This document shows, in pieces, positions 19,434-63,450 of a stretch of DNA of 64,000 bases. The DNA comes from Eledone cirrhosa (lineage: Eukaryota). A model generated the notes under the pieces. That model was given only the letters and a program-made list of their open reading frames with translations, was not told where the DNA came from and did no database searches. The stretch is from positions 260,276,001 to 260,340,000 of the forward strand of contig OZ024741.1 in the NCBI GenBank assembly GCA_964016885.1, in the 5' to 3' direction. The position numbers and the translations under genes are program-made. Position 1 is the stretch's first letter, and every line of letters starts with the position of its first letter.

Positions 19434-19502
19434 AAATAACAAATAGACGCGGTTTCAAATCTCTATGCTTTTCAAATTCATTACATTAATCTTTATTTAT
19501 AC
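19434..19502 (+). repeat. First copy of the 69-bp insert (allele A)
   Basis: Read directly; it replaces the GT of a monomer between TACGA and GTTTCG. Confidence 0.95.
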
Positions 19503-22500
19503 GTTTCGCTTTACGAGTGTTTCGACTTACGAGTCTTTCGACATACGAGTGTTTCAGCTTACGAGTGTTTTGATTTACGAGTGATTTGACTTACGGGTGT
19601 TTCGACTTACGCGTGTTTCGACTTACGAGTGTTTCGGCTATGAGTGTTTTGACTTACGGGTGTTTCGACTTACGGGTGTTTCGACTTACGAGTGTTTCGG
19701 CTTATGAGTGTTTCGACTTACGGGTGTTTTGACTTACGGGTGTTTTGACATACGAGTGTTTCGATACGAGTGTTCTGACTTACGAGTGTTCTGACTTACG
19801 AGTGTTCTCACTTACGGGTGTTCTGACTTACGGGTGTTTCGACTTACGAGTGTTTCGACTTACGAGTGTATCGGCTTACGAGTGTTTCGACTTACTAATG
19901 TTTTTACTTACGAGTGTTTCGGTGTACGAGTGTTTCGACTTAAGGATGTTTCGACTTACGAGTGTTTCGACTTCCGAGTTTTCCGACTTACGAGTGTTCC
20001 GACTTACGAGTGTTTCGGCTTACGAGTGTTTCGGATTACGAGTGTTTCGGCTTACGAGTGTTTTGACTTACGAGTGTTCTGACTACGAGTGTTCTGACTT
20101 ACGGGTGTTCTGACTTACGAGTGTTCCGACTTACGAGTGTTTCGGCTTATGAGTTTTTCGACTTACGGGCGTTTCGACTTACGGGTGTTTCGACTTACGA
20201 ATGTTTTGGCTTACGAGTGTTCTGACTTACGAGTTTTCCGACTTACGTCTGTTTCGACTTACGAGTGTTTTGACTTACGAGTGTTCCGACTTACGAGTGT
20301 TTCGGCTTACGGGTGTTTCGACGTACGAGTATTTTTGGCTTACGAGTGTTTCGACTTACGAGTGTTTTGAATTACGATTGTTTCGGCTTACGAGTGTTTC
20401 AACTTACGAGTATTTCGAATTACGAGTTTTTTTACTTACGGTGTTTCGGCTTACGAGTGTTTCGACTTACGAGTGTTTTGACTTACGGGTGTTTTGACAT
20501 ACGAGTGTTTCGATACGAGTGCTCTGACTTACGAGTGTTCTGACTTACGAGTGTTCTGACTTACGAGTGTTCTGACTTACGGGTGTTCTGACTTACGTGT
20601 GTTCCGACTTACGAGTGTTTCGGTTATGGGTGTTTCGACTTACGAGTGTTTCGACTTACGAATGTTTTGGCTTACGAGTGTTTCGGCTTACGAATGTTTC
20701 GACTTACGAATGTTTTGGCTTGCGAGTGTTTCGGCTTACGGGTGTTTCGACTTACGAGTGTTTCGACTTACGAGTGTTTTGACTTACGGTGTTTCGGCTT
20801 ACGATTTATTCGACATACGAGTGTTTCGACTTACGGGTGTTTCGACTTACGGGTGTTTCGACTTACGAGTGTTTCGACTTATGAGTGTTTCGACTTACGA
20901 GTGTTCTGACTTACGAGTGTTCTGACTTACGAGTGTTTCGGTTTACGAGTGTTTCGACATACGAGTGTTTTGACTTACGGGTGTTTCGACTTACGGGTGT
21001 TTCGACTTACGAGTGTTTCGGCTTACGAGTGTTTCGACTTACTAATGTTTTTACTTACGAGTGTTTCGGTGTACGAGTGTTTCGACTTAATGATGTTTCG
21101 ACTTGCGAGTGTTTCGACTTACGTGTGTTTCGGCTTACGTGAGTTTCGACTTAAGAGTGTTCTGATTTACGAGTGTTCTGACTTGCGGGTGTTCTGATTT
21201 ACGAGTGTTCCGACTTACGAGTGTTTCGGCTTATGAGTGTTTCGACTTACGAGTGTTTCGACTTACGAGTGTTTTTACTTACGGTGTTTCGGCTTACGAG
21301 TGTTTCGACATACGAGTGTTCAGACTTACGAGTGTTCCGACTTACGAGCGTTCCGACTTACGAGTGTTTCGACTTACGAGTGTTAAGACTTACGGGTGTT
21401 TTGACATACGAGTGTTTCGATACGAGTGTTTCGACTTACGAGTGTTACGAGTGTTCTGACTTACGAGTGTTCTGACTTACGAGTGTTCTGACTTACGAGT
21501 GTTCTGACTTACGAGCGTTCTGACTTACGAGTGTTCCGACTTACGAGTGTTTCGGCTTACGGGTGTTTTGACATACGAGTGTTTCGATACAAAGTGTTTC
21601 GACTTACGAGTGTTACGAGTGTTCTGACTTACGAGTGTTTCGACTTACGAGTGTTCTGACCTACAAGTGTTCTGACTTACGAGTGTTTCGACTTACGATT
21701 GTTTTTTTCACTTACGGGTGTTTCGACTTACGCGTGTTTCGATTTACGAGTGTTTAGACTTACGAGTGTTTCGACTACGAATGTTCCGACTTACGAGTGT
21801 TTCGACTTACGAGTGTTTCGACTTACGGGTGTTCCGACTTACGAGTGTTTCGGCTTACGATTGTTTCGACTTACGAGTGTTTCGGTTTACGAGTGTTTCG
21901 ACTTACGGGTGTTTTGACTTACGATTGTTTGGGCTTACGAATGTTTCGACTTACGAGTGTTTCAACTTACGAGTGTTTTGATTTACGGTGTTTCGGCTTA
22001 CGAGTGTTTTGACTTACGAGTGTTTTGACTTACGGGTGTTTTGACATACGAGTGTTTCGATACGAGTGTTCTGACTTACGAGTGTTCTGACTTACGAGTG
22101 TTCTGACTTACGAGTGTTCTGACTTACGAGTGGTCTGACTTACGGGTGTTCTGACTTACGAGTGTTCCGACTTACGAGTGTTTCAGCTTATGAGTGTTTC
22201 GACTTACGAGTGCTTCGGTTTACGAGTGTTTCGACTTACGAATTTTTCGGCTTACGAGTGTTTCGACTTACGAATGTTTTGGCTTACGAGTGTTTCGGCT
22301 TACGAGTGTTTCGGCTTATGAGTGTTTCGACTTACGAGTGTTTTGACTTATGGTGTTTCGGCTTACGAGTGTTTCGACATACGAGTGTTTTGACTTACGG
22401 GTGTTTCGACTTACGGGTGTTTCGACGTAAGAGTGTTTCGACTTACGAGCGCTTCGAGATACGAGTGTTTCGACTTACGAGTGTTTCGGCGTACGAGTGT

Positions 22501-24609
22501 TTTGACTTACGAGTGTTTCGACTTACGAGTGCTTTGACTTACGAATGTTTTGAATTACTTCGACTTACGAGTGATCTGACTTACGAGTGTTCCTACTTAC
22601 GAGTGTTTCGACTTACGAGTGTTTCGACTTGCGAGTGTTTCGACTTACGAGTGTTTCGACTTACGAGTGTTCTGACTTACGAGTGTTCTGACTTACGAGT
22701 GTTCTGACTTACGAGTGTTCCGACTTACGAGTGTTTCGACTTACGAGTGTTTTGACTTACGAATGTTCTGACTTACGGGTGTTTCGGCTTACGAGTGTTT
22801 CGACTTACGAGTGTTTTAGCTTACGGGTGTTTCGACTTACACGTGTTTCGGCTTGCGAGTGTTTCGACTTACGAGTATTTCGACTTACGAGTGTTTCGAC
22901 TTACGAGTGTTCTGACTTACGGGTGTTCCGACTTACGAGTGTTTCGGCTTACGATTATTTTAACTTGCGATTGTTTGGCTTACGAATGTTTCGACTTACG
23001 AGTGTTTCGACTTACGAGTGTTTTGACTTACGGTGTTTCGGCTTACGAGTGTTTCGACTTACGAGTGTTTTGACTTACGGGTGTTTTGACATACGAGTGT
23101 TTCGATACGAGTGTTCTGACATACGAGTGTTCTGACTTACGTGTTCCGACTTACGAGTGTTTCGGCTTATGAGGGTTTCGACTTACGAGTGCTTCGGCTT
23201 ACGAGTGTTTCGACTTACGAGTGTTTCGGCTTACGAGTGTTTCGACTTACGAATGTTTTGGCTTACGAGTGTTTCGGCTTACGAGTGTTTCGACTTACGA
23301 GTGTTTCGTCTTACGAGTGTTTTGACTTACGGTGTTTCGGCTTACGAGTGTTTCGACATACGAGTGTTTTGACGTACGGGTGTTTCGACTTACGGGTGTT
23401 TCGACTTAAGAGTGTTTCGACTTACGAGCGCTTCGACTTACGAGTGTTTCGACTTACGAGTGTTTCGGCGTACGAGTGTTTCGACTTACGAGTGTTTCGA
23501 CTTACGAGTGTTTCGACTTACGAGTGTTTCGACTTACGAGTGTTTTGACTTACGAGTGTTTTGACTAACGGTGTTTCTGCTTACGAGTGTTTCGACTTAC
23601 GAGCGTTGACTTACGGGTGTTTTGACATACGAGTATTTCGATACGAGTGTTTCGACTTACGAGTGTTACGAGTGTTCTGACTTACGAGTGTTTCGACTTA
23701 CGAGTGTTCTGACTTACGAGTGTTTCGACTTACGAGTGTTCTGACCTACGAGTGTTCTGACTTACGAGTGTTTCGACATACGAGTGTTTTGACTTACGGG
23801 TGTTTCGACTTACGAGTGTTTCGAGTTACGAGTGTTTCGAGTTACGAGTGTTTCGACTTACGAGTGTTTTTACTTACGAATGTTCTGAGTTACGGGTGTT
23901 TCGGCTTACGAGTGTTTCGACTTACGAGTGTTTTTACTTACGAATGTTCTGAGTTACGGGTGTTTCGGCTTACGAGTGTTTCGACTTACGAGTGTTTTAA
24001 CTTACGGCTGTTTCTACTTACGCGTGTTTCGACTTGCAAGTGTTTCGACTTACGAGTGTTTCGACTTGCAAGTGTTTCGATTACGAGTGTTTCGACTACA
24101 AATGTTCCGACTTACGAGTGTTTCGACTTAGGAGTGTTTCGACTTACGAGTGTTCTGACTTACGGGTGTTCCGACTTACGAGTGTTTCGATACGAGTGTT
24201 CTGTCTTACGAGTGTTCTGACTTACGAGTGTTCTGACTTACGAGTGTTCTGACTTACGGGTGTTCTGACTTACGAGTGTTCCGACTTACGAGTGTTTCGG
24301 CTTATGAGGGTTTCGACTTACGAGTGCTTCGGCTTACGAGTGTTTCGACCTACGAGTGTTTCGGCTTACGAGTGTTTTGACTTACGAATGTTTTGGCTTA
24401 CGAGTGTTTCGGCTTACGAGTGTTTCGAATTACGAGTGTTTCGACTTACGAGTGTTTTGACTTACGGTGTTTCGGCTTACGAGTGATCGACTTACGAGTG
24501 TTTTAACTTACGGGTGTTTCGACTTACGCGTGTTTCGACTTACGAATGTTCCGACTTACGAGTGTTTCGACTTACGAGTGTTTCGGCTTACGAGTGTTTC
24601 GACTTACGA

Positions 24610-24685
24610 AAATAACAAGTAGACGCGGTTTCAAATATCTTTTGAAAATGCTTTTCAAATTCATTACATTAATCTTTATTTATAC
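24610..24685 (+). repeat. 76-bp insert variant carrying an extra TTTGAAA (second copy at 32449..32524)
   Basis: Reads ...TTTCAAATATCT[TTTGAAA]ATGCTTTTCAAA... versus ...TTTCAAATATCTATGCTTTTCAAA in the other G-allele copies. Confidence 0.93.
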
Positions 24686-27600
24686 GTTTCGCTTTACGAG
24701 TGTTTCGGCGTACGAGTGTTTCGACTTACGAGTGTTTTGACTTACGGGTGTTTCGGCTTACGAGTGTTTCGACTTACGAGTGTTCTGACTTACGACTGTT
24801 CCGACTTACGAGCGTTCCGACTTACGAGTGTTTCGGCTTACGAGTGTTCCGACTTACGAGTGTTTCGACTTACGAGTGTTTTGACTTACGGTGTTTCGGC
24901 TTACGAGTGTTTTGACTTACGAGTGTTTTGACTTACGGGTGTTTTGACATACGAGTGTTTCGATACGAGTGTTCTGACTTACGAGTGTTCTGACTTACGA
25001 GTGTTCTGACTTACGAGTGTTCTGACTTACGAGTGGTCTGACTTACGGGTGTTCTTACTTACGAGTGTTTCAGCTTATGAGTGTTTCGACTTACGAGTGC
25101 TTCGGTTTACGAGTGTTTCGACTTACGAGTGTTTCGACTTACGAGTGTTTCGACTTACGAGTGTTTTGACTTACGAGTGTTTTGACTAACGGTGTTTCTG
25201 CTTACGAGTGCTTCGACTTACGAGTGTTATGACTTACGGGTGTTTTGACATACGAGTGTTTCGATACGAGTGTTTCGACGTACGAGTGTTACGAGTGTTC
25301 TGACTTACGAGTGTTCCGACTTACGAGTGTTCCGACTTACGAGTGTTTCGGCTTACGAGTGTTTCGGCTTACGAGTGTTTCGACTTACGAATGTTTTGAC
25401 ATACGAGTGTTCCGACTTATGGATGTTTCAACTTACGAGTGTTTTGGCTTACGGTGTTTCGGCTTACGAGTGTTTCGAGTTACGAGTGTTTTGACTTACG
25501 CGTGTTTTGACGTACGAGTGTTTCGATACGAGTGTTCTGACTTACGAGTGTTCTGACTTACGAGTGTTCTGACTTACGAATGTTCTGACTTACGAGTGTT
25601 CCGACTTTACGAGTGTTTCGGCTCACGAGTGTTTCGGCTTACGAGTGTTTCGACTTACGAAAATAACAAATAGACGCGGTTTCAAATCTCTATGCTTTTC
25701 AAATTCATTACATTAATCTTTATTTATACGTTTCGCTTTACGAGAGTTTCGGCTTACGAGTGTTTCGACATACGAGTGTTTCGGCTTAAGAGTTTTTTAT
25801 TTACGAGTGTTTTGACTTACGGGTGCTTCGACTTACGCGTGTTTCGACTTACGAGTGTTTCGACTTACGAGTGTTTCGACTTACGAGTGTTTCGGCTTAC
25901 GAGTGTTTTGACTTACGAATGTTTTGACTTACGATTGTTTCGGCTTACGAGTGTTTCGACTTACGAGTGTTTTGACTTACGAGTGTTTTGACTAACGGTG
26001 TTTTTGCTTACGAGTGTTTCGACTTACGAGCGTTGACTTACGGGTGTTTTGACATACGAGTGTTTCGATACGAGTGTTTCGACTTACGAGTGTTACGAGT
26101 GTTCTGACTTACGAGTGTTTCGACTTACGAGTGTTCTGACTTACGAGTGTTTCGACTTACGAGTGTTCTGACCTACGAGTGTTCTGACTTACGAGTGTTT
26201 CGACATACGAGTGTTTTGACTTACGGGTGTTTCGACTTACGAGTGTTTCGAGTTACGAGTGTTTCGAGTTACGAGTGTTTCGACTTACGAGTGTTTTTAC
26301 TTACGAATGTTCTGAGTTACGGGTGTTTCGGCTTACGAGTGTTTCGAATTACGAGTGTTTTAACTTACGGGTGTTTCTACTTACGCGTGTTTCGACTTGC
26401 AAGTGTTTCGACTTACGAGTGTTTCGACTTGCAAGTGTTTCGATTACGAGTGTTTCGACTACAAATGTTCCGACTTACGAGTGTTTCGACTTACGAGTGT
26501 TTCGACTTACGAGTGTTCTGCCTTACGGGTGTTCCGACTTACGAGTGTTTCGATACGAGTGTTCTGACCTACGAGTGTTCTGACTTACGAGTGTTCTGAC
26601 TTACGAGTGTTCTGACTTACGGGTGATCTGACTTACGAGTGTTCCGACTTACGAGTGTTTCGGCTTATGAGGGTTTCGACTTACGAGTGCTTCGGCTTAC
26701 GAGTGTTTCGAGCTACGAGTGTTTCGGCTTACGAGTGTTTTGACTTACGAATGTTTTGGCTTACGAGTGTTTCGGCTTACGAGTGTTTCGAATTACGAGT
26801 GTTTCGACTTACGAGTGTTTTGACTTACGGTGTTTCGGCTTACGAGTGTTTTGACTTAAGGAGGTTTCGACTTACGAGTGTTTCGATACGAGTGTTTCGA
26901 CTTACGAGTGTTCTGACTTACGAGTGTTCTGATTTACGGATGTTTCAACATACGAGTGTTTCGACTTACGAGTGTTTCGACTTACGAGTGTTTCCATACG
27001 AGTGTTTCGACTTACGAATGTTCTAACTTACGAGTGTTCTGACTTACGAGTGTTCTGACTTACGAGTGTTCTGACTTACGAGTGTTCTGTCTTACGAGTG
27101 TTCCGACTTACGAGTGTTCCGACTTACGAGTGTTTCGGCTTACGAGTGTTTCGGCTTACGAGTGTTTCGACTTACGAGTGTTTCGACTTATGAGTGTTCC
27201 GACTTACGGGTGTTTCGACTTACGAGTGTTTTGGCTTACGGTGTTTCGGCTCACGAGTGTTTCGACTTACGAAAATAACAAATAGACGCGGTTTCAAATC
27301 TCTATGCTTTTCAAATTCATTACATTAATCTTTATTTATACGTTTCGCTTTACGAGTGTTTCGACTTACGAGTCTTTCGACATACGAGTGTTTCAGCTTA
27401 CGAGTGTTTTGATTTACGAGTGATTTGACTTACGGGTGTTTCGACTTACGCGTGTTTCGACTTACGAGTGTTTCGGCTATGAGTGTTTTGACTTACGGGT
27501 GTTTCGACTTACGGGTGTTTCGACTTACGAGTGTTTCGGCTTATGAGTGTTTCGACTTACGGGTGTTTTGACTTACGGGTGTTTTGACATACGAGTGTTT

Positions 27601-30600
27601 CGATACGAGTGTTCTGACTTACGAGTGTTCTGACTTACGAGTGTTCTCACTTACGGGTGTTCTGACTTACGGGTGTTTCGACTTACGAGTGTTTCGACTT
27701 ACGAGTGTATCGGCTTACGAGTGTTTCGACTTACTAATGTTTTTACTTACGAGTGTTTCGGTGTACGAGTGTTTCGACTTAAGGATGTTTCGACTTACGA
27801 GTGTTTCGACTTCCGAGTTTTCCGACTTACGAGTGTTCCGACTTACGAGTGTTTCGGCTTACGAGTGTTTCGGATTACGAGTGTTTCGGCTTACGAGTGT
27901 TTTGACTTACGAGTGTTCTGACTACGAGTGTTCTGACTTACGGGTGTTCTGACTTACGAGTGTTCCGACTTACGAGTGTTTCGGCTTATGAGTTTTTCGA
28001 CTTACGGGCGTTTCGACTTACGGGTGTTTCGACTTACGAATGTTTTGGCTTACGAGTGTTCTGACTTACGAGTTTTCCGACTTACGTCTGTTTCGACTTA
28101 CGAGTGTTTTGACTTACGAGTGTTCCGACTTACGAGTGTTTCGGCTTACGGGTGTTTCGACGTACGAGTATTTTTGGCTTACGAGTGTTTCGACTTACGA
28201 GTGTTTTGAATTACGATTGTTTCGGCTTACGAGTGTTTCAACTTACGAGTATTTCGAATTACGAGTTTTTTTACTTACGGTGTTTCGGCTTACGAGTGTT
28301 TCGACTTACGAGTGTTTTGACTTACGGGTGTTTTGACATACGAGTGTTTCGATACGAGTGCTCTGACTTACGAGTGTTCTGACTTACGAGTGTTCTGACT
28401 TACGAGTGTTCTGACTTACGGGTGTTCTGACTTACGTGTGTTCCGACTTACGAGTGTTTCGGTTATGGGTGTTTCGACTTACGAGTGTTTCGACTTACGA
28501 ATGTTTTGGCTTACGAGTGTTTCGGCTTACGAATGTTTCGACTTACGAATGTTTTGGCTTGCGAGTGTTTCGGCTTACGGGTGTTTCGACTTACGAGTGT
28601 TTCGACTTACGAGTGTTTTGACTTACGGTGTTTCGGCTTACGATTTATTCGACATACGAGTGTTTCGACTTACGGGTGTTTCGACTTACGGGTGTTTCGA
28701 CTTACGAGTGTTTCGACTTATGAGTGTTTCGACTTACGAGTGTTCTGACTTACGAGTGTTCTGACTTACGAGTGTTTCGGTTTACGAGTGTTTCGACATA
28801 CGAGTGTTTTGACTTACGGGTGTTTCGACTTACGGGTGTTTCGACTTACGAGTGTTTCGGCTTACGAGTGTTTCGACTTACTAATGTTTTTACTTACGAG
28901 TGTTTCGGTGTACGAGTGTTTCGACTTAATGATGTTTCGACTTGCGAGTGTTTCGACTTACGTGTGTTTCGGCTTACGTGAGTTTCGACTTAAGAGTGTT
29001 CTGATTTACGAGTGTTCTGACTTGCGGGTGTTCTGATTTACGAGTGTTCCGACTTACGAGTGTTTCGGCTTATGAGTGTTTCGACTTACGAGTGTTTCGA
29101 CTTACGAGTGTTTTTACTTACGGTGTTTCGGCTTACGAGTGTTTCGACATACGAGTGTTCAGACTTACGAGTGTTCCGACTTACGAGCGTTCCGACTTAC
29201 GAGTGTTTCGACTTACGAGTGTTAAGACTTACGGGTGTTTTGACATACGAGTGTTTCGATACGAGTGTTTCGACTTACGAGTGTTACGAGTGTTCTGACT
29301 TACGAGTGTTCTGACTTACGAGTGTTCTGACTTACGAGTGTTCTGACTTACGAGCGTTCTGACTTACGAGTGTTCCGACTTACGAGTGTTTCGGCTTACG
29401 GGTGTTTTGACATACGAGTGTTTCGATACAAAGTGTTTCGACTTACGAGTGTTACGAGTGTTCTGACTTACGAGTGTTTCGACTTACGAGTGTTCTGACC
29501 TACAAGTGTTCTGACTTACGAGTGTTTCGACTTACGATTGTTTTTTTCACTTACGGGTGTTTCGACTTACGCGTGTTTCGATTTACGAGTGTTTAGACTT
29601 ACGAGTGTTTCGACTACGAATGTTCCGACTTACGAGTGTTTCGACTTACGAGTGTTTCGACTTACGGGTGTTCCGACTTACGAGTGTTTCGGCTTACGAT
29701 TGTTTCGACTTACGAGTGTTTCGGTTTACGAGTGTTTCGACTTACGGGTGTTTTGACTTACGATTGTTTGGGCTTACGAATGTTTCGACTTACGAGTGTT
29801 TCAACTTACGAGTGTTTTGATTTACGGTGTTTCGGCTTACGAGTGTTTTGACTTACGAGTGTTTTGACTTACGGGTGTTTTGACATACGAGTGTTTCGAT
29901 ACGAGTGTTCTGACTTACGAGTGTTCTGACTTACGAGTGTTCTGACTTACGAGTGTTCTGACTTACGAGTGGTCTGACTTACGGGTGTTCTGACTTACGA
30001 GTGTTCCGACTTACGAGTGTTTCAGCTTATGAGTGTTTCGACTTACGAGTGCTTCGGTTTACGAGTGTTTCGACTTACGAATTTTTCGGCTTACGAGTGT
30101 TTCGACTTACGAATGTTTTGGCTTACGAGTGTTTCGGCTTACGAGTGTTTCGGCTTATGAGTGTTTCGACTTACGAGTGTTTTGACTTATGGTGTTTCGG
30201 CTTACGAGTGTTTCGACATACGAGTGTTTTGACTTACGGGTGTTTCGACTTACGGGTGTTTCGACGTAAGAGTGTTTCGACTTACGAGCGCTTCGAGATA
30301 CGAGTGTTTCGACTTACGAGTGTTTCGGCGTACGAGTGTTTTGACTTACGAGTGTTTCGACTTACGAGTGCTTTGACTTACGAATGTTTTGAATTACTTC
30401 GACTTACGAGTGATCTGACTTACGAGTGTTCCTACTTACGAGTGTTTCGACTTACGAGTGTTTCGACTTGCGAGTGTTTCGACTTACGAGTGTTTCGACT
30501 TACGAGTGTTCTGACTTACGAGTGTTCTGACTTACGAGTGTTCTGACTTACGAGTGTTCCGACTTACGAGTGTTTCGACTTACGAGTGTTTTGACTTACG

Positions 30601-41990: not shown

Positions 41991-42350
41991 TTTCGGCTTA
42001 CGAGTGATCGACTTACGAGTGTTTTAACTTACGGGTGTTTCGACTTACGCGTGTTTCGACTTACGAATGTTCCGACTTACGAGTGTTTCGACTTACGAGT
42101 GCTTCGGCTTACGAGTGTTTCGACTTACGAAAATAACAAGTAGACGCGGTTTCAAATATCTATGCTTTTCAAATTCATTACATTAATCTTTATTTATACG
42201 TTTCGCTTTACGAGTGTTTCGGCGTACGAGTGTTTCGACTTACGACTGTTTTGACTTACGTGTGTTTCGGCTTACGAGTGTTTTGACTTACGAGTGTTTT
42301 GACTTACGGGTGTTTCGGCTTACGAGTGTTTCGACTTACGAGTGTTCTGA

Positions 42351-47900: not shown

Positions 47901-48269
47901 GCTTACGAGTGCTTCGACTTACGAGTGTTATGACTTACGGGTGTTTTGACATACGAGTGTTTCGATAAGAGTGTTTCGACGTACGAGTGTTACGAGTGTT
48001 CTGACTTACGAGTGTTCCGACTTACGAGTGTTCCGACTTACGAGTGTTTCGGCTTACGAGTGTTTCGGCTTACGAGTGTTTCGACTTACGAATGTTTTGA
48101 CATACGAGTGTTCCGACTTATGGGTGTTTCAACTTACGAGTGTTTTGGCTTACGGTGTTTCGGCTTACGAGTGTTTCGAGTTACGAGTGTTTTGACTTAC
48201 GCGTGTTTTGACATACGAGTGTTTCGATACGAGTGTTCTGACTTACGAGTGTTCTGACTTACGAGTGTT

Positions 48270-51200
48270 CCGACTTTACGAGTGTTTCGGCTCACGAGTG
48301 TTTCGGCTTACGAGTGTTTCGACTTACGAAAATAACAAATAGACGCGGTTTCAAATCTCTATGCTTTTCAAATTCATTACATTAATCTTTATTTATACGT
48401 TTCGCTTTACGAGTGTTTCGACTTACGAGTGTTTCGACATACGAGTGTTTCGGCTTAAGAGTTTTTTTATTTACGAGTGTTTTGACTTACGGGTGCTTCG
48501 ACTTACGCGTGTTTCGACTTAAGAGTGTTTCGACTTACGAGTGTTTCGACTTACGAGTGTTTCGGCTTACGAGTGTTTTGACTTACGAATGTTTTGACTA
48601 ACGATTGTTTCGGCTTACGAGTGTTTCGACTTACGAGTGTTTTGACTTACGAGTGTTTTGACTAACGGTGTTTCTGCTTACGAGTGTTTCGACTTACGAG
48701 CGTTGACTTACGGGTGTTTTGACATACGAGTGTTTCGATACGAGTGTTTCGACTTACGAGTGTTACGAGTGTTCTGACTTACGAGTGTTTCGACTTACGA
48801 GTGTTCTGACTTACGAGTGTTTCGACTTACGAGTGTTCTGACCTACGAGTGTTCTGACTTACGAGTGTTTCGACATACGAGTGTTTTGACTTACGGGTGT
48901 TTCGACTTACGAGTGTTTCGACTTACGAGTGTTTTAACTTACGGGTGTTTCTACTTACGCGTGTTTCGACTTGCAAGTGTTTCGACTTACGAGTGTTTCG
49001 ACTTGCAAGTGTTTCGATTACGAGTGTTTCGACTACAAATGTTCCGACTTACGAGTGTTTCGACTTACGAGTGTTTCGACTTACGAGTGTTCTGCCTTAC
49101 GGGTGTTCCGACTTACGAGTGTTTCGATACGAGTGTTCTGACTTACGAGTGTTCTGACTTACGAGTGTTCTGACTTACGAGTGTTCTGACTTACGGGTGA
49201 TCTGACTTACGAGTGTTCCGACTTACGAGTGTTTCGGCTTATGAGGGTTTCGACTTACGAGTGCTTCGGCTTACGAGTGTTTCGAGCTACGAGTGTTTCG
49301 GCTTACGAGTGTTTTGACTTACGAATGTTTTGGCTTACGAGTGTTTCGGCTTACGAGTGTTTCGAATTACGAGTGTTTCGACTTACGAGTGTTTTGACTT
49401 ACGGTGTTTCGGCTTACGAGTGTTTTGACTTACGAGTGTTTTGACTTACGGGTGTTTTGACATACGAGTGTTTCGATACGAGTGTTCTGACTTACGAGTG
49501 TTCTGACTTACGAGTGTTCTGACTTACGAGTGTTCTGACTTACGAGTGGTCTGACTTACGGGTGTTCTTACTTACGAGTGTTTCAGCTTATGAGTGTTTC
49601 GACTTACGAGTGCTTCGGTTTACGAGTGTTTCGACTTACGAGTGTTTCGACTTACGAGTGTTTCGACTTACGAGTGTTTTGACTTACGAGTGTTTTGACT
49701 AACGGTGTTTCTGCTTACGAGTGCTTCGACTTACGAGTGTTATGACTTACGGGTGTTTTGACATACGAGTGTTTCGATACGAGTGTTTCGACGTACGAGT
49801 GTTACGAGTGTTCTGACTTACGAGTGTTCCGACTTACGAGTGTTCCGACTTACGAGTGTTTCGGCTTACGAGTGTTTCGGCTTACGAGTGTTTCGACTTA
49901 CGAATGTTTTGACATACGAGTGTTCCGACTTATGGGTGTTTCAACTTACGAGTGTTTTGGCTTACGGTGTTTCGGCTTACGAGTGTTTTGACTTACGCGT
50001 GTTTTGACATACGAGTGTTTCGATACGAGTGTTCTGACTTACGAGTGTTCTGACTTACGAGTGTTCTGACTTACGAATGTTCTGACTTACGAGTGTTCCG
50101 ACTTTACGAGTGTTTCGGCTCACGAGTGTTTCGGCTTACGAGTGTTTCGACTTACGAAAATAACAAATAGACGCGGTTTCAAATCTCTATGCTTTTCAAA
50201 TTCATTACATTAATCTTTATTTATACGTTTCGCTTTACGAGTGTTTCGACTTACGAGTGTTTCGACATACGAGTGTTTCGGCTTAAGAGTTTTTTATTTA
50301 CGAGTGTTTTGACTTACGGGTGCTTCGACTTACGCGTGTTTCGACTTACGAGTGTTTCGACTTACGAGTGTTTCGACTTACGAGTGTTTCGGCTTACGAG
50401 TGTTTTGACTTACGAATGTTTTGACTTACGATTGTTTCGGCTTACGAGTGTTTCGACTACGAGTGTTTTGACTTACGAGTGTTTTGACTAACGGTGTTTC
50501 TGCTTACGAGTGTTTCGACTTACGAGCGTTGACTTACGGGTGTTTTGACATACGAGTGTTTCGATACGAGTGTTTCGACTTACGAGTGTTACGAGTGTTC
50601 TGACTTACGAGTGTTTCGACTTACGAGTGTTCTGACTTACGAGTGTTTCGACTTACGAGTGTTCTGACCTACGAGTGTTCTGACTTACGAGTGTTTCGAC
50701 ATACGAGTGTTTTGACTTACGGGTGTTTCGACTTACGAGTGTTTCGACTTACGAGTGTTTTAACTTACGGGTGTTTCTAACGCGTGTTTCGACTTGCAAG
50801 TGTTTCGACTTACGAGTGTTTCGACTTGCAAGTGTTTCGATTACGAGTGTTTCGACTACAAATGTTCCGACTTACGAGTGTTTCGACTTACGAGTGTTTC
50901 GACTTACGAGTGTTCTGCCTTACGGGTGTTCCGACTTACGAGTGTTTCGATACGAGTGTTCTGACTTACGAGTGTTCTGACTTACGAGTGTTCTGACTTA
51001 CGAGTGTTCTGACTTACGGGTGATCTGACTTACGAGTGTTCCGACTTACGAGTGTTTCGGCTTATGAGGGTTTCGACTTACGAGTGCTTCGGCTTACGAG
51101 TGTTTCGAGCTACGAGTGTTTCGGCTTACGAGTGTTTTGACTTACGAATGTTTTGGCTTACGAGTGTTTCGGCTTACGAGTGTTTCGAATTACGAGTGTT

Positions 51201-52560
51201 TCGACTTACGAGTGTTTTGACTTACGGTGTTTCGGCTTACGAGTGTTTTGACTTACGAGTGTTTTGACTTACGGGTGTTTTGACATACGAGTGTTTCGAT
51301 ACGAGTGTTCTGACTTACGAGTGTTCTGACTTACGAGTGTTCTGACTTACGAGTGTTCTGACTTACGAGTGGTCTGACTTACGGGTGTTCTTACTTACGA
51401 GTGTTTCAGCTTATGAGTGTTTCGACTTACGAGTGCTTCGGTTTACGAGTGTTTCGACTTACGAGTGTTTCGACTTACGAGTGTTTCGACTTACGAGTGT
51501 TTTGACTTACGAGTGTTTTGACTAACGGTGTTTCTGCTTACGAGTGCTTCGACTTACGAGTGTTATGACTTACGGGTGTTTTGACATACGAGTGTTTCGA
51601 TACGAGTGTTTCGACGTACGAGTGTTACGAGTGTTCTGACTTACGAGTGTTCCGACTTACGAGTGTTCCGACTTACGAGTGTTTCGGCTTACGAGTGTTT
51701 CGGCTTACGAGTGTTTCGACTTACGAATGTTTTGACATACGAGTGTTCCGACTTATGGGTGTTTCAACTTACGAGTGTTTTGGCTTACGGTGTTTCGGCT
51801 TACGAGTGTTTTGACTTACGCGTGTTTTGACATACGAGTGTTTCGATACGAGTGTTCTGACTTACGAGTGTTCTGACTTACGAGTGTTCTGACTTACGAA
51901 TGTTCTGACTTACGAGTGTTCCGACTTTACGAGTGTTTCGGCTCACGAGTGTTTCGGCTTACGAGTGTTTCGACTTACGAAAATAACAAATAGACGCGGT
52001 TTCAAATCTCTATGCTTTTCAAATTCATTACATTAATCTTTATTTATACGTTTCGCTTTACGAGTGTTTCGACTTACGAGTGTTTCGACATACGAGTGTT
52101 TCGGCTTAAGAGTTTTTTATTTACGAGTGTTTTGACTTACGGGTGCTTCGACTTACGCGTGTTTCGACTTACGAGTGTTTCGACTTACGAGTGTTTCGAC
52201 TTACGAGTGTTTCGGCTTACGAGTGTTTTGACTTACGAATGTTTTGACTTACGATTGTTTCGGCTTACGAGTGTTTCGACTTACGAGTGTTTTGACTTAC
52301 GAGTGTTTTGACTAACGGTGTTTCTGCTTACGAGTGTTTCGACTTACGAGCGTTGACTTACGGGTGTTTTGACATACGAGTGTTTCGATACGAGTGTTTC
52401 GACTTACGAGTGTTACGAGTGTTCTGACTTACGAGTGTTTCGACTTACGAGTGTTCTGACTTACGAGTGTTTCGACTTACGAGTGTTCTGACCTACGAGT
52501 GTTCTGACTTACGAGTGTTTCGACATACGAGTGTTTTGACTTACGGGTGTTTCGACTTAC
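48270..52560. repeat. ~1.82-kb tandem repeat, about 2.3 copies
   Basis: Inserts 48330/50158/51981 (1828, 1823). ORFs 49229/51052, 49758/51581 and 50189/52012 (1823). Confidence 0.88.
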
Positions 52561-55500
52561 GAGTGTTTCGAGTTACGAGTGTTTCGAGTTACGAGTGTTT
52601 CGACTTACGAGTGTTTTTACTTACGAATGTTCTGAGTTACGGGTGTTTCGGCTTACGAGTGTTTCGACTTACGAGTGTTTTAACTTACGGGTGTTTCTAC
52701 TTACGCGTGTTTCGACTTGCAAGTGTTTCGACTTACGAGTGTTTCGACTTGCAAGTGTTTCGATTACGAGTGTTTCGACTACAAATGTTCCGACTTACGA
52801 GTGTTTCGACTTACGAGTGTTTCGACTTACGAGTGTTCTGCCTTACGGGTGTTCCGACTTACGAGTGTTTCGATACGAGTGTTCTGACTTACGAGTGTTC
52901 TGACTTACGAGTGTTCTGACTTACGGGTGATCTGACTTACGAGTGTTCCGATTTACGAGTGTTTAGGCTTATGAGGGTTTCGACTTACGAATGTTTTGGC
53001 TTACGAGTGTTTCGGCTTACGAGTGTTTCGAATTACGAGTGTTTCGACTTACGAGTGTTCTGACTTACGACTGTTCCGACTTACGAGCGTTCCGACTTAC
53101 GAGTGTTTCGGCTTACGAGTGTTTCGAATTACGAGTGTTTCGACTTACGAGTGTTTTGACTTACGGTGTTTCGGCTTACGAGTGATCGACTTACGAGTGT
53201 TTTAACTTACGGGTGTTTCGACTTACGCGTGTTTCGACTTACGAATGTTCCGACTTACGAGTGTTTCGACTTACGAGTGCTTCGGCTTACGAGTGTTTCG
53301 ACTTACGAAAATAACAAGTAGACGCGGTTTCAAATATCTATGCTTTTCAAATTCATTACATTAATCTTTATTTATACGTTTCGCTTTACGAGTGTTTCGG
53401 CGTACGAGTGTTTCGACTTACGACTGTTTTGACTTACGTGTGTTTCGGCTTACGAGTGTTTTGACTTACGAGTGTTTTGACTTACGGGTGTTTCGGCTTA
53501 CGAGTGTTTCGACTTACGAGTGTTCTGACTTACGACTGTTCCGACTTACGAGCGTTCCGACTTACGAGTGTTTCGGCTTACGAGTGTTCCGACTTACGAG
53601 TGTTTCGACTTACGAGTGTTTTGACTTACGGTGTTTCGGCTTACGAGTGTTTTGACTTACGAGTGTTTTGACTTACGGGTGTTTTGACATACGAGTGTTT
53701 CGATACGAGTGTTCTGACTTACGAGTGTTCTGACTTACGAGTGTTCTGACTTACGAGTGTTCTGAGTTACGAGTGGTCTGACTTACGGGTGTTCTTACTT
53801 ACGAGTGTTTCAGCTTATGAGTGTTTCGACTTACGAGTGCTTCGGTTTACGAGTGTTTCGACTTACGAGTGTTTCGACTTACGAGTGTTTCGACTTACGA
53901 GTGTTTTGACTTACGAGTGTTTTGACTAACGGTGTTTCTGCTTACGAGTGCTTCGACTTACGAGTGTTATGACTTACGGGTGTTTTGACATACGAGTGTT
54001 TCGATACGAGTGTTTCGACTTACGAGTGTTACGAGTGTTCTGACTTACGAGTGTTCCGACTTACGAGTGTTCCGACTTACGAGTGTTTCGGCTTACGAGT
54101 GTTTCGGCTTACGAGTGTTTCGACTTACGAATGTTTTGACATACGAGTGTTCCGACTTATGGGTGTTTCGACTTACGAGTGTTTTGGCTTACGGTGTTTC
54201 AGCTTACGAGTGTTTCGAGTTACGAGTGTTTTGACATACGAGCGTTTCGATACGAGTGTTCTGACTGACGAGTGTTCTGACTTACGAGTGTTCTGACTTA
54301 CGAGTGTTCTGACTTACGAGTGTTCCGACTTTACGAGTGTTTCGGCTCACGATTGTTTCGGCTTACGAGTGTTTCGACTTACGAAAATAACAAATAGACG
54401 CGGTTTCAAATCTCTATGCTTTTCAAATTCATTACATTAATCTTTATTTATACGTTTCGCTTTACGAGTGTTTCGACTTACGAGTGTTTCGACATACGAG
54501 TGTTTCGGCTTAAGAGTTTTTTATTTACGAGTGTTTTGACTTACGGGTGCTTCGACTTACGCGTGTTTCGACGTACGAGTGTTTCGACTTACGAGTGTTT
54601 CGGCTTACGAGTGTTTTGACTTACGAATGTTTTGACTTACGATTGTTTCGGCTTACGAGTGTTTCGACTTACGAGTGTTCTGACTACGAGTGTTCTGACT
54701 TACGGGTGTTCTGACTTACGAGTGTTCCGACTTACGAGTGTTTCGGCTTATGAGTGTTTCGACTTACGAGTGCTTCGACTTACGAGTGTTTCGGCTTACG
54801 GGTGTTTCGACTTACGAATGTTTTTGCTTACGAGTGTTTCGATACGAGTGTTCTGACTTACGAGTGTTCTGACTTACGAGTGTTCTGACTTACGAATGTT
54901 CTGACTTACGAGTGTTCCGACTTTACGAGTGTTTCGGCTCACGAGTGTTTCGGCTTACGAGTGTTTCGACTTACGAAAATAACAAATAGACGCGGTTTCA
55001 AATCTCTATGCTTTTCAAATTCATTACATTAATCTTTATTTATACGTTTCGCTTTACGAGTGTTTCGACTTACGAGTGTTTCGACATACGAGTGTTTCGG
55101 CTTAAGAGTTTTTTATTTACGAGTGTTTTGACTTACGGGTGCTTCGAATTACGCGTGTTTCGACTTACGAGTGTTTCGACTTACGAGTGTTTCGACTTAC
55201 GAGTGTTTCGGCTTACGAGTGTTTTGACTTACGAATGTTTTGACTTACGATTGTTTCGGCTTACGAGTGTTTCGACTTACGAGTGTTTTGACTTACGAGT
55301 GTTTTGACTAACGGTGTTTCTGCTTACGAGTGTTTCGACTTACGAGCGTTGACTTACGGGTGTTTTGACATACGAGTGTTTCGATACGAGTGTTTCGACT
55401 TACGAGTGTTACGAGTGTTCTGACTTACGAGTGTTTCGACTTACGAGTGTTCTGACTTACGAGTGTTTCGACTTACGAGTGTTCTGACCTACGAGTGTTC

Positions 55501-57500
55501 TGACTTACGAGTGTTTCGACATACGAGTGTTTTGACTTACGGGTGTTTCGACTTACGAGTGTTTCGAGTTACGAGTGTTTCGAGTTACGAGTGTTTCGAC
55601 TTACGAGTGTTTTTACTTACGAATGTTCTGAGTTACGGGTGTTTCGGCTTACGAGTGTTTCGACTTACGAGTGTTTTAACTTACGGGTGTTTCTACTTAC
55701 GCGTGTTTCGACTTGCAAGTGTTTCGACTTACGAGTGTTTCGACTTGCAAGTGTTTCGATTACGAGTGTTTCGACTACAAATGTTCCGACTTACGAGTGT
55801 TTCGACTTACGAGTGTTTCGACTTACGAGTGTTCTGCCTTACGGGTGTTCCGACTTACGAGTGTTTCGATACGAGTGTTCTGACTTACGAGTGTTCTGAC
55901 TTACGAGTGTTCTGACTTACGAGTGTTCTGACTTACGGGTGATCTGACTTACGAGTGTTCCGACTTACGAGTGTTTCGGCTTATGAGGGTTTCGACTTAC
56001 GAGTGCTTCGGCTTACGAGTGTTTCGACCTACGAGTGTTTCGGCTTACGAGTGTTTTGACTTACGAATGTTTTGGCTTACGAGTGTTTCGGCTTACGAGT
56101 GTTTCGAATTACGAGTGTTTCGACTTACGAGTGTTTTGACTTACGGTGTTTCGGCTTACGAGTGATCGACTTACGAGTGTTTTAACTTACGGGTGTTTCG
56201 ACTTACGCGTGTTTCGACTTACGAATGTTCCGACTTACGAGTGTTTCGACTTACGAGTGCTTCGGCTTACGAGTGTTTCGACTTACGAAAATAACAAGTA
56301 GACGCGGTTTCAAATATCTATGCTTTTCAAATTCATTACATTAATCTTTATTTATACGTTTCGCTTTACGAGTGTTTCGGCGTACGAGTGTTTCGACTTA
56401 CGACTGTTTTGACTTACGTGTGTTTCGGCTTACGAGTGTTTTGACTTACGAGTGTTTTGACTTACGGGTGTTTCGGCTTACGAGTGTTTCGACTTACGAG
56501 TGTTCTGACTTACGACTGTTCCGACTTACGAGCGTTCCGACTTACGAGTGTTTCGGCTTACGAGTGTTCCGACTTACGAGTGTTTCGACTTACGAGTGTT
56601 TTGACTTACGGTGTTTCGGCTTACGAGTGTTTTGACTTACGAGTGTTTTGACTTACGGGTGTTTTGACATACGAGTGTTTCGATACGAGTGTTCTGACTT
56701 ACGAGTGTTCTGACTTACGAGTGTTCTGAGTTACGAGTGGTCTGACTTACGGGTGTTCTTACTTACGAGTGTTTCAGCTTATGAGTGTTTCGACTTACGA
56801 GTGCTTCGGTTTACGAGTGTTTCGACTTACGAGTGTTTCGACTTACGAGTGTTTTGACTTACGAGTGTTTTGACTAACGGTGTTTCTGCTTACGAGTGCT
56901 TCGACTTACGAGTGTTATGACTTACGGGTGTTTTGACATACGAGTGTTTCGATACGAGTGTTTCGACTTACGAGTGTTACGAGTGTTCTGACTTACGAGT
57001 GTTCCGACTTACGAGTGTTCCGACTTACGAGTGTTTCGGCTTACGAGTGTTTCGGCTTACGAGTGTTTCGACTTACGAATGTTTTGACATACGAGTGTTC
57101 CGACTTATGGGTGTTTCGACTTACGAGTGTTTTGGCTTACGGTGTTTCAGCTTACGAGTGTTTCGAGTTACGAGTGTTTTGACTTACGCGTGTTTTGACA
57201 TACGAGCGTTTCGATACGAGTGTTCTGACTTACGAGTGTTCTGACTTACGAGTGTTCTGACTTACGAGTGTTCTGACTTACGAGTGTTCCGACTTTACGA
57301 GTGTTTCGGCTCACGATTGTTTCGGCTTACGAGTGTTTCGACTTACGAAAATAAAAAATAGACGCGGTTTCAAATCTCTATGCTTTTCAAATTCATTACA
57401 TTAATCTTTATTTATACGTTTCGCTTTACGAGTGTTTCGACTTACGAGTGTTTCGACATACGAGTGTTTCGGCTTAAGAGTTTTTTTATTTACGAGTGTT
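51981..57500. repeat. ~3.0-kb tandem repeat, about 2 copies
   Basis: ORFs 52012/55008 and 52467/55463 (2996); inserts 51981/54977 (2996) and 53309/56289 (2980). Confidence 0.82.
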
Positions 57501-60199
57501 TTGACTTACGGGTGCTTCGACTTACGCGTGTTTCGACTTACGAGTGTTTCGACTTACGAGTGTTTCGGCTTACGAGTGTTTTGACTTACGAATGTTTTGA
57601 CTTACGATTGTTTCGGCTTACGAGTGTTTCGACTTACGAGTGTTCTGACTACGAGTGTTCTGACTTACGGGTGTTCTGACTTACGAGTGTTCCGACTTAC
57701 GAGTGTTTCGGCTTATGAGTGTTTCGACTTACGAGTGCTTCGACTTACGAGTGTTTCGGCTTACGGGTGTTTCGACTTACGAATGTTTTTGCTTACGAGT
57801 GTTTTGGCTTACGAGTGTTTCGGCTTATGAGTGTTTCGACTTACGAGTGTTTTGACTTACGGGTGTTTTGACATACGAGTGTTTCGATACGAGTGTTCTG
57901 ACTTACGAGTGTTTCCGCTTACGAGTGTTTCGGCTTACGAGTGTTTCGACTTACTAATGTTTTTACTTACGAGTGTTTCGGTGTACGAGTGTTTCGACTT
58001 AAGTATGTTCCGACTTACGAATGTTTCGGTTTACGAGTGTTTCGACACACGAGTGTTTTGACTTACGGGGGTTTCGACTTACGGGTGTTTCGACATACGA
58101 GTGTTTCGGCTTACGAGTGTTTCGACTTACTAATGTTTTTACTTACGAGTGTTTCGGTTTACGAGTGTTTCGACACACGAGTGTTTTGACTTACGGGGGT
58201 TTCGACTTACGGGTGTTTCGACATACGAATGTTTCGGTTTACGAGTGTTTCGACACACGAGTGTTTCGACTTAAGGCTGTTTCGACTTACGAGTGTTTCG
58301 ACTTAAGGGTGTTTTGACTTACGGGTGTTGTGAATTACGAGTGTTCCGATTTACGAGTGTTTTGACTTACGGTGTTTCGGCTTACGAGTTATTCGACTTA
58401 CGAATGTTTTGACTTACGGGATTTTCGGCTTGCGAGTGTTTCGACTAACTAGCGTTTCGGCTTATGAGTGTTTCGACTTACTAATGTTTTGACTTACGAG
58501 TGTTTCGGCGTACGAGTGTTTTGACTTACGAGTGTTTCGACTTACGAGTGTTTTGACTTACGAATGTTTTGACTTACGGGTGTTTCGGCTTACGAGTGTT
58601 TCGACTTACGAGTGTTTCGGCTGGCGAGTGTTTCGACTTACGAGTGTTTTGACTTAAGGGTGTTTCGACTTACGAGTGTTTAGACTTACGAGTGTTTCGA
58701 CTTACGAGTGTTTTGACTTATGGTGTTTCGGCTTACGAGTGTTTCGACATACGAGTGTTTTGACTTACGGGGGTTTCGACTTACGGGTGTTTCGACGTAA
58801 GAGTGTTTCGACTTACGAGCGCTTCGATTTACGAGTGTTTCGACTTACGAGTATTTCGGCGTACGAGTGTTTTGACTTACGAGTGTTTGGACTTACGAGT
58901 GCTTTGACTTACGAATGTTTTGAATTACTTCGACTTACGAGTGATCTGACTTACGAGTGTTCCTACTTACGAGTGTTTCGACTTACGAGTGTTTCGACTT
59001 GCGAGTGTTTCGACTTACGAGTGTTTCGACTTACGAGTGTTCTGACTTACGAGTGTTCTGACTTACGAGTGTTCTGACTTACGAGTGTTCCGACTTACGA
59101 GTGTTTCGACTTACGAGTGTTTTGACTTACGGGTGATTTGACTTACGGGTGTTTCGCCTTACGAGTGTTTCGACTTACGAGTGTTTTAACTTACGGGTGT
59201 TTCGACTTACGCGTGTTTCGACTTACGAGTGTTTCGACTTACGAGTGTTTCGACTTACGAATGTTCCGACTTACGAGTGTTTCTACTTACGAGTGTTTCG
59301 GCTTACGAGTGTTTCGACTTACGAAAATAACAAATAGACGCGGTTTCAAATATCTATGCTTTTCAAATCCATTACATTAATCTTTATTTATACGTTTCGC
59401 TTTACGAGTGTTTCGACTACGAATGTTCCGACTTACGAGTGTTTCGACTTACGAGTGTTTCGACTTACGAGTGCTTTGACTTACGAATGTTTTGACTTAC
59501 TTCGACTTACGAGTGATCTGACTTACGAGTGTTCCTACTTACGAGTGTTTCGACTTACGAGTGTTTCGACTTGCGAGTGTTTCGACTTACGAGTGTTTCG
59601 GCTTACGAGTGTTTCAGTGTTTCGGCTTACGTGTGTTTCGACTTACGAGTGCTTCGACTTACGAGTGTTTCGGCTTATGAGTGTTTCGACTTACGAGTGC
59701 TTCGGCTTACGAGTGTTTCGACTTACGAGTATTTCGGCTTACGAGTGTTTCGACGTACGAATGTTTTGGCTTACGAGTGTTTCGGCTTATGAGTGTTTCG
59801 ACTTACGAGTGTTTCGACTTACGAGTGTTTCGGCTTACGAGTGTTACGAGTGTTCTGACTTACGAGTGTTTCGATTTACGAGTGTTTAGACTTACGAGTG
59901 TTTCGACTACGAATGTTCCGACTTACGAGTGTTTCGACTTACGAGTGTTTCGACTTACGGGTGTTCCGACTTACGAGTGTTTCGGCTTACGATTGTTTCG
60001 ACTTACGAGTGTTTCGGTTTACGAGTGTTTCGACTTACGGGTGTTTTGACTTACGATTGTTTGGGCTTACGAATGTTTCGACTTACGAGTGTTTCGACTT
60101 ACGAGTGTTTTGACTTATGGTGTTTCGGCTTACGAGTGTTTTGACTTACGAGTGTTTTGACTTACGGGTGTTTTGACATACGAGTGTTTCGATACGAGT

Positions 60200-63100: not shown

Positions 63101-63450
63101 TTACGGTGTTTCGGCTTACGAGTGTTTCGACATACGAGTGTTTTGACGTAGGGTGTTTCGACTTACGGGTGTTTCGACTTAAGAGTGTTTCGACTTACGA
63201 GCGCTTCGACTTACGAGGGTTTCGACTTACGAGTGTTTCGGCGTACGAGTGTTTCGACTTACGAGTGTTTCGACTTACGAGTGTTTCGACTTACGAGTGT
63301 TTCGACTTACGAGTGTTTTGACTTACGAGTGTTTTGACTAACGGTGTTTCTGCTTACGAGTGTTTCGACTTACGAGTGTTATGACTTACGGGTGTTTTGA
63401 CATACGAGTGTTTCGATACGAGTGTTTCGACTTACGAGTGTTACGAGTGT
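60200..63450. repeat. ~1.6-kb tandem duplication in an insert-free part of satellite B
   Basis: ORFs 60262/61902 and 60422/62062 (1640), 61355/62963 (1608). The shared rare unit TTTGACGTAGGG occurs at ~61566 and ~63142. Confidence 0.82.

What the first reader, a model, noticed from the sequence alone, without database searches (positions are those of the whole stretch)
19434..59393. One 69-bp AT-rich cassette punctuates the 16-bp array 25 times at an identical monomer position
All 25 copies have the same orientation and the same flanks, including the diagnostic downstream variant GTTTCGCTTTACGAG. They therefore descend from a single event and spread by array amplification, not by repeated insertion; no target-site duplication is visible. 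Spacing is 0.59-5.2 kb, mostly 1-2 kb in the 33-59 kb core. Only four substitution sites and one indel were noticed among the copies. It may be a relic of the parent element's internal sequence, or a functional AT-rich spacer (nucleosome phasing, origin, or processing signal). AATAAA and ATTAAT occur on its minus strand, so transcript termination is possible.
Basis: partly seen in the sequence, partly recalled or inferred. Interest (0 to 1): 0.7.

Follow-up and report, generated by a model that had tools for sequence, protein, structure and literature searches.

The report
Helitron flank copied into its satellite
The 69-base piece repeated through this satellite is the DNA that lies just before the same 16-base repeat inside a small dispersed jumping gene; it was likely duplicated into the growing array once, in one lineage of that gene, and then likely carried along about 2,000 times as a passenger with no sign of function.

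Summary
Observation confirmed: 25 copies, one strand, one junction. It is not a foreign insertion. 20 of 20 solitary hits fetched are a ~510-bp element with Helitron ends (5' TC; 3' hairpin + CTAG). It reads: head, cassette bases 5-69, 2-7 units of the 16-mer, tail. The 'diagnostic' downstream variant is the element's own first unit. The cassette's first four bases come from a head with an 8-bp deletion; only 4 such heads were found, and all 4 open long cassette-bearing arrays. One is a whole element with two internal cassettes. A tail variant marks 19 of 19 array tails and 0 of 24 dispersed tails. The junction form has 2,077 exact matches, the native form 156. Raw counts make the cassette look 0.45-0.83 times as variable as its flanks. 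Without monomer-variant swaps and CpG transitions the ratio is 0.80-1.63, never significant. Spacing is irregular (243-34,751 bp). Verdict: likely neutral passenger of a Helitron-born satellite, a known kind, with unusually clear ancestry. Two earlier scan notes on nearby DNA reached the Helitron origin of the 16-mer. Chromatin and RNA untested.

The parts
19434..19502 (+). Cassette copy 1 (reference, 69 bp): left flank of the parent element's 16-bp repeat; bases 5-69 = element bases 73-137, bases 1-4 = end of the A-run of the 8-bp-deleted head
19433..19433 (+). Junction base: one A shared by the last monomer and the head's A-run (1-nt microhomology); same junction in all 25 copies
   Evidence: table 5 (both = 1); one search found 1 copy genome-wide with a non-A here
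19503..19518 (+).
24610..24685 (+). Copy 2, 76-bp variant: 7-bp insertion that is the reverse complement of a 7-mer present twice in the cassette (likely template switch)
25661..25729 (+). Copy 3
27273..27341 (+). Copy 4 (duplicate of copy 1)
32449..32524 (+). Copy 5, 76-bp variant (duplicate of copy 2)
33500..33568 (+). Copy 6 (duplicate of copy 3)
35484..59393 (+). Copies 7-25, starting at 35484, 36592, 37183, 39135, 40243, 40835, 42131, 43207, 44443, 47334, 48330, 50158, 51981, 53309, 54385, 54977, 56289, 57349, 59325 (69 bp each), in local block duplications
15640..64000 (+). 16-bp satellite array, ~3,050 units, running on for at least 140 kb past the window; expanded internal repeat of the parent element
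18990..34697 (+). Perfect tandem duplication, 7,869 identical bases at offset 7,839 (recent duplication or assembly artefact)
15354..15639 (+). Truncated 5' part of a second Helitron-like family ('H'), the founder lineage's downstream neighbour; with the parent's tail it forms a second, ~690-800-bp passenger in other arrays
1..15353 (.). Unrelated 39-bp satellite abutting the array (context, not part of the finding)

Best explanation
The cassette is the 69 bases that lie directly before the 16-bp internal repeat of a dispersed ~510-bp element with Helitron ends; in one lineage, marked by an 8-bp head deletion, this flank was likely duplicated into the expanding repeat by a single break-and-rejoin at a 1-base microhomology, and unequal exchange then likely copied it about 2,000 times as a neutral passenger. 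Steps. (1) SHOWN: dispersed elements read head - cassette core - 2-7 units - tail. (2) SHOWN: one lineage lost 8 bp of head, which creates the cassette's exact 5' end, and carries a tail variant. (3) INFERRED: its repeat grew by slippage or unequal exchange. (4) INFERRED: a monomer was joined to the point 69 bp upstream of the array, by tandem duplication between sisters or by an excised circle; both leave the same junction. (5) SHOWN: a whole element with head, native flank, two junction cassettes and tail exists on C4. (6) INFERRED: ordinary block duplication and unequal crossing-over spread [cassette + n units] through arrays on C2 (254.7-263 Mb, 240.96 Mb), C1 (279.3 Mb) and C4; SHOWN are shared duplicated blocks and free spacing. 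(7) SHOWN within limits: new point changes arise in the cassette at about the flank rate.
For: 20 of 20 solitary hits fetched (20 of the 27 solitary C1 rows) are the element, with the cassette core then the 'diagnostic' unit. Native form: 156 exact matches, 77 +/79 -, scattered. Junction form: 2,077; its first 100 rows fall in three array clusters only. Deleted head: 4 matches, 4 of 4 open long arrays with junction cassettes; three of them share upstream DNA and so count as one context. C4:114,051,260-114,054,283 is the complete intermediate. Tail variant in 19 of 19 array tails and 0 of 24 dispersed tails; array tails form one side of a branch, support 92/82. Spanning-tree test on 139 copies, 119 edges: 30 changes in 69 cassette sites vs 105 in 192 flank sites, ratio 0.80 (95% CI 0.51-1.20); non-CpG ratio 0.98 (0.60-1.53). 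Without common-variant swaps and CpG transitions: 0.80-1.63, p >= 0.13 in 30 of 30 settings. 29 of 69 sites vary among 174 copies; mean divergence 1.3%, the same as the dispersed elements' 1.3%. 154 spacings, 243-34,751 bp, CV 1.23; best of 81 periods (150-230 bp) p = 0.027 uncorrected.
Against: Raw counts show the cassette less variable than flanks: ratio 0.45-0.83, p < 0.05 in 12 of 15 settings; the neutral reading depends on discounting swaps between common monomer variants and CpG transitions. The intervals exclude strong but not mild constraint. The minus-strand AATAAA is intact in 173 of 174 copies (1 of 6 sites variable vs 29 of 69, p = 0.19). Tail support is not starred and rests largely on one CpG transition. 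The C4 copy has deletions of its own, so it is a sister, not the founder; the first junction event is not seen directly. No RepHel partner with the same ends in 20 loci. The A|T target is met on the 5' side in only 6 of 20. No chromatin or RNA data.
Confidence: 0.85

Rival explanations
1. Same origin, but the cassette has been co-opted: an AT-rich spacer that sets nucleosome or centromeric chromatin boundaries, or ends minus-strand satellite transcripts at its AATAAA.
For: Lower raw variability than flanks; AATAAA intact in 173 of 174; present in most array stretches sampled across 8 Mb; GC 25% vs 43%.
Against: The difference disappears without variant swaps and CpG transitions. Array stretches of 34.7 kb, 14.5 kb and 10 kb have no cassette. 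No period in spacing. Insertions and deletions are tolerated. The motifs are already in the parent element.
Confidence: 0.07
2. The cassette junction is a product of Helitron rolling-circle copying: RepHel made a truncated circle (flank + array) and wrote it out as a tandem array, so transposition rather than recombination built the first repeats.
For: The parent has Helitron ends; array + tail + neighbour H occurs at C4 and C2:240.96 Mb as well as in the large arrays; a review describes tandem arrays of truncated Helitrons from faulty rolling-circle copying (PMC12628747, passages).
Against: The junction does not use the element's 5' TC or 3' CTAG; it joins a monomer to the A-run about 60 bases inside the head. 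That model predicts repeated 5' ends, but only 4 deleted heads stand against 2,077 junctions. Unit lengths vary 140-fold.
Confidence: 0.06
3. A foreign fragment or small mobile element inserted, once or repeatedly, at one monomer position.
For: Identical monomer phase in all 25 copies.
Against: The cassette is contiguous with head and first repeat unit in 20 of 20 dispersed elements; no target duplication; one junction type; the pogo-type end pattern tried had 0 matches.
Confidence: 0.01
4. Much of the copy number and identity is an assembly artefact (reads expanded or duplicated).
For: A perfect 7.9-kb duplication in the window; 200-N gaps and strand flips nearby.
Against: 29 variable sites and region-specific haplotypes; arrays on three contigs; duplicated blocks with graded differences.
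Confidence: 0.01

Closest known systems
Helitron/Helentron internal tandem repeats that become satellites: Crassostrea gigas Cg_HINE and Cg170/HindIII (PMC7492417, PMC8268682; 12 passages each); Drosophila DINE-TR1 (Dias et al. 2015, seen only as a reference title)
   Same: A short repeat sits between conserved left and right flanks of a non-autonomous rolling-circle element, always in one orientation, and also occurs as long arrays, some with element ends on one side only.
   Different: Ends here are HLE1-type (TC; hairpin + CTAG), not HINE subterminal inverted repeats. The unit is 16 bp, not 100-500 bp. Arrays reach megabases. A piece of the left flank is itself copied into the array ~2,000 times, and two markers trace the arrays to one lineage.
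Non-autonomous HLE1 (canonical Helitron), as defined in PMC11417382 (12 passages)
   Same: 5' TC, 3' hairpin + CTRR, no terminal inverted repeat, no coding capacity.
   Different: 5' neighbour is usually a fused piece of another element (A in 6 of 20); 3' neighbour starts with TC in 20 of 20 and looks like another element's head; no autonomous partner found.
pBuM-2 alpha/beta satellite of the Drosophila buzzatii cluster (PMC5555486, 12 passages)
   Same: A non-homologous segment entered a satellite array once and was amplified with it.
   Different: There beta is of unknown origin, read as an insertion, and alternates 1:1 with alpha; here the segment is the array's own parental flank and occurs once per ~15-2,000 units.
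Tandem arrays of truncated Helitrons from rolling-circle amplification (Xiong et al. 2016, seen only through review PMC12628747)
   Same: Helitron fragments repeated inside long arrays.
   Different: Those repeat the 5' end; this junction lacks the 5' TC and lies inside the head.

Membership tests
Non-autonomous HLE1 Helitron (parent element) | 5' end begins with TC | tested here: met
   20 of 20 dispersed copies
Non-autonomous HLE1 Helitron (parent element) | 3' end: short hairpin then CTRR | tested here: met
   CTAG after a GC-rich inverted repeat in 20 of 20; one copy folded, -13.1 kcal/mol with DNA parameters
Non-autonomous HLE1 Helitron (parent element) | No terminal inverted repeats | tested here: met
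   First 40 bases vs reverse complement of last 40 do not match; one copy compared
Non-autonomous HLE1 Helitron (parent element) | Insertion between A and T, without target duplication | tested here: inconclusive
   T follows in 20 of 20; preceding base A in 6, G in 13, T in 1, because most heads are fused to a piece of another element; outer ends and empty sites not determined; no duplication seen by eye
Non-autonomous HLE1 Helitron (parent element) | Autonomous RepHel element sharing both ends | tested here: inconclusive
   PF14214 has 150 scored matches of 3,704 candidates; 0 of 20 long-frame loci, 10 kb each, share the ends, though 2 end in hairpin + CTAG of another family
HLE2 / HINE (Helentron-associated) | Short (sub)terminal inverted repeats and insertion between T and T | tested here: not met
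   No inverted ends; 5' neighbour T in 1 of 20
MITE (pogo/Tigger-like) | Terminal inverted repeats with TA duplication | tested here: not met
   One recalled end pattern had 0 matches; the parent's ends are not inverted
Element-derived satellite (DINE-TR1 / Cg170 type) | Same repeat as a short array inside dispersed elements and as long arrays | tested here: met
   1.8-6.8 units in the 18 of 20 copies measured; >3,000 units in the window; intermediate on C4
Rolling-circle concatemer of whole Helitrons | Junction joins 3' CTRR to 5' TC of the same element | tested here: not met
   The cassette junction joins a monomer to an internal A-run
Functional or centromeric satellite motif (CENP-B-box-like spacer) | Conserved beyond neighbouring monomers | tested here: not met
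   Corrected ratio 0.80-1.63, p >= 0.13 in 30 of 30; raw ratio is lower; mild constraint not excluded
Functional or centromeric satellite motif (CENP-B-box-like spacer) | Protein binding, CENP-A occupancy or transcript ends at the motif | not testable with these tools
   No chromatin data; no raw RNA reads were offered

The most novel reading that the evidence does not exclude
A single ~510-bp Helitron copy, tagged by an 8-bp deletion, seeded an ~8-Mb satellite domain on C2 and arrays on C1 and C4 within the time its family diverged by about 1%, and that domain is now centromeric. The cassettes and tails would then be built-in barcodes for replaying the birth of a centromeric satellite from a known founder lineage.
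Probability: 0.15. Interest if true: 0.65.

Novelty: new member of a known kind. Interest (0 to 1): 0.3.

Why it matters
As a functional element it likely does not matter. Its value is historical. Satellite birth from a Helitron's internal repeat is usually inferred from similarity. Here the steps lie side by side in one genome: 2-7 units, a 2.7-kb whole element with cassettes, a 4.8-kb array, a ~97-kb array and a multi-megabase domain. Two markers tie them to one lineage. The cassette is non-repetitive and mutates at about the background rate, so ~2,000 copies give a neutral marker for measuring how fast such arrays grow, homogenise and move between chromosomes. About 2,077 copies times 2.7 kb mean spacing suggests ~5-6 Mb of array (inference).

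Tried and rejected
Pogo/Tigger MITE origin, a recalled resemblance of the 16-mer: pattern had 0 matches; the parent is Helitron-like. DNA searches of G000 returned only the 40 best array copies; the exact-pattern search exposed the solitary ones. Public runs: no RNA holder listed, which is no evidence either way. Ten runs under 8 coded organisms hold sampled words (3 words only); 8 were laid. X3, X4, X6, X7 each hold the whole 69 bp in one 114-164-base contig at depth 2.5-10. X2 and X8 hold the array junction at depth 2.5-4.6, X5 the native head at depth 10, and X1 many diverged pieces. This fits trace DNA of a high-copy repeat at least as well as sharing between species; not used as evidence. 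Nucleosome phasing: best of 81 periods p = 0.027 uncorrected. Autonomous partner: 0 of 20 loci. C4 copy as the founder itself: rejected, it has private deletions. Earlier findings by sequence: none. Literature searches (listings only) showed no title describing this repeat or a flank copied into a Helitron-born array. Repbase, Dfam and paper supplements were not seen and may already name the family. One search's labels were faulty (tail set included monomers) and were redone.
Full report
Observation. The window holds a 39-bp satellite (1-15,353) and a 16-bp satellite (15,640-64,000, ~3,050 units). The 69-mer occurs 25 times, all on +, always after the same monomer position and before GTTTCGCTTTACGAG, with four substitution sites and one 7-bp insertion, spaced 591-5,176 bp. 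The copies are not independent: 7,869 identical bases at offset 7,839 cover copies 1-3 and 4-6, and most copies share long ungapped flanks with another. The window is G000:C2:260,276,001-260,340,000 in a 3.0-Gb genome. The host is likely an octopod, from a SINE seen in flanks (recalled, not tested) and from earlier scan notes.

The parent element. An exact 26-mer of the cassette has 2,031 matches, control 0, with many solitary hits. I fetched 20 of the 27 solitary C1 hits listed. All 20 are one ~510-bp element (482-735 bp; the two longest carry an insertion): TC-starting head, cassette bases 5-69 at element bases 73-137, then the 16-mer beginning with the 'diagnostic' variant, then a ~310-bp tail ending in a hairpin and CTAG, followed by T. 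The repeat has 1.8-6.8 units in the 18 copies measured, 3.8 in 13 of them. These are the ends of a canonical non-autonomous Helitron (PMC11417382, passages). Two defining features stay open: the 5' neighbour is A in only 6 of 20, and no RepHel locus with the same ends was found among 20 examined. So the cassette is the repeat's native left flank, and the downstream variant is the element's first unit.

One lineage. The standard head differs from cassette bases 1-4. At C2:254,735,084 an array opens with a head lacking 8 bp, which yields the cassette's 5' end exactly; one laid run shows those 8 letters as an insertion against it. Only 4 such heads were found, and all 4 open long arrays with junction cassettes. 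Three on C2 share upstream DNA and are one context. The fourth, C4:114,051,260-114,054,283, is whole: head, native flank, 654 bp array, cassette, 622 bp, cassette, 849 bp, tail, then the neighbour element H. It has private deletions, so it is a sister of the C2 lineage. A tail variant is in 19 of 19 array-linked tails and 0 of 24 dispersed tails; the array tails form one side of a branch at 92/82, not starred. The junction form has 2,077 exact matches, its first 100 rows only at C1:279.3, C2:240.96 and C2:254.7 Mb onward; the native form has 156, scattered on both strands; only 1 copy has a base other than A before the cassette.

Mechanism. The junction joins a monomer to the head's A-run with one shared A. 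It uses neither element end, so it is not a head-to-tail rolling-circle joint. The likeliest route (inferred) is one microhomology-guided duplication of [flank + units] after the repeat had grown, or an excised circle with the same junction, followed by unequal exchange and block duplication. A second passenger supports this: the parent's tail plus the start of H, ~690-800 bp, interrupts other arrays at 4-13-kb intervals; window 15,354-15,639 is a truncated piece of it. Sampled stretches show the 16-mer from C2:254.7 to 263.0 Mb, mixed with the 39-mer satellite and unique DNA. How the expanded element moved between chromosomes, by transposition or ectopic recombination, is not resolved.

Function test. 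I used array copies in stretches fetched by place (177, 174 of 69 bp), leaving out loci picked for identity to the cassette. On a spanning tree of matched blocks (139 copies, 119 edges) the cassette had 30 changes in 69 sites and flanks 105 in 192: ratio 0.80, CI 0.51-1.20; non-CpG 0.98. Against this reading, raw ratios over 15 settings were 0.45-0.83 and significant in 12. The excess lies in swaps between common monomer variants and in CpG transitions, which the cassette can hardly undergo; without them the ratio is 0.80-1.63, p >= 0.13 in 30 of 30 settings. The window alone has too few events (1-3 vs 7-13). 29 of 69 sites vary; mean divergence is 1.3%, like the dispersed elements' 1.3%. AATAAA is intact in 173 of 174 copies, which is not significant by sites (p = 0.19) or by events (p = 0.065). 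Spacing is 243-34,751 bp with no period. Strong constraint is excluded, mild constraint is not; chromatin and RNA were not testable.

Comparison and verdict. Growth of a Helitron's internal repeat into satellite DNA is established (PMC7492417, PMC8268682, PMC12628747; 12 passages each), and a non-homologous piece amplified within an array is known from pBuM-2 (PMC5555486, passages). Earlier scan notes e1-10323897 and e1-10323900 gave the same origin for the 16-mer from nearby DNA; I saw them after reaching this reading. New member of a known kind; interest 0.3.

Noticed in passing
L116-L135 (C1 dispersed copies), base after the 3' end: 20 of 20 copies are followed directly by TC and what looks like the head of another Helitron-like family, of several kinds; this suggests the element targets other elements' starts.
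   Followed up: partly
L116-L135, upstream of the head: 13 of 20 heads are fused at one point to the same truncated piece of another element, so the mobile unit may be a composite; other heads are fused to at least four other pieces.
   Followed up: partly
window 1-15353; also C2:260,183,252-260,291,353, 255.3 and 255.8 Mb: 39-bp satellite of ~108 kb, interleaved with the 16-mer domain. It gives stop-free frames up to 2,176 codons (Cys/Gln-rich on +, Asn/Thr-rich on -), but every frame has 39-232 stops; likely non-coding.
   Followed up: partly
window 24610-24685 and 32449-32524: 7-bp insertion that is the reverse complement of a nearby 7-mer, forming a short hairpin; likely one template-switch event; only these 2 copies among the 40 best matches.
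   Followed up: yes
L062:985-1723; C2:257.21-257.25, 260.97-260.99, 261.60-261.67 Mb: Second passenger (parent tail + head of family H, ~690-800 bp) forms higher-order units of 4-13 kb in the arrays.
   Followed up: partly
C1:279,290,001-279,410,000 (L114, L113, L110-L112, L148, L149): A ~97-kb array of the 16-mer lies between other satellites (about 25-bp and 19-bp units), at a similar relative position to the C2 domain; possibly pericentromeric.
   Followed up: no
C2:240,962,017-240,966,805 (L107, L108): Isolated 4.8-kb array with 6 cassettes, headless, starting in a (TA)n run; its neighbour H is cut off by other sequence.
   Followed up: partly
L200, L201, L209 (C2:315.5, C4:22.2, C10:54.86 Mb): Helitron Rep loci with long open frames (up to 1,718 codons); two end in hairpin + CTAG then T, candidates for recently active autonomous elements of another family.
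   Followed up: no
L180-L199 (C16, C19, C20, C27): Near-identical Helitron Rep domains recur at ~100-kb-scale spacing on several small contigs, as if part of a large repeated unit.
   Followed up: no
L120, L123, L130; C2:86.72-86.79 Mb: A second head type carries the cassette core from base 10; in three loci it is truncated and followed directly by the standard element.
   Followed up: no
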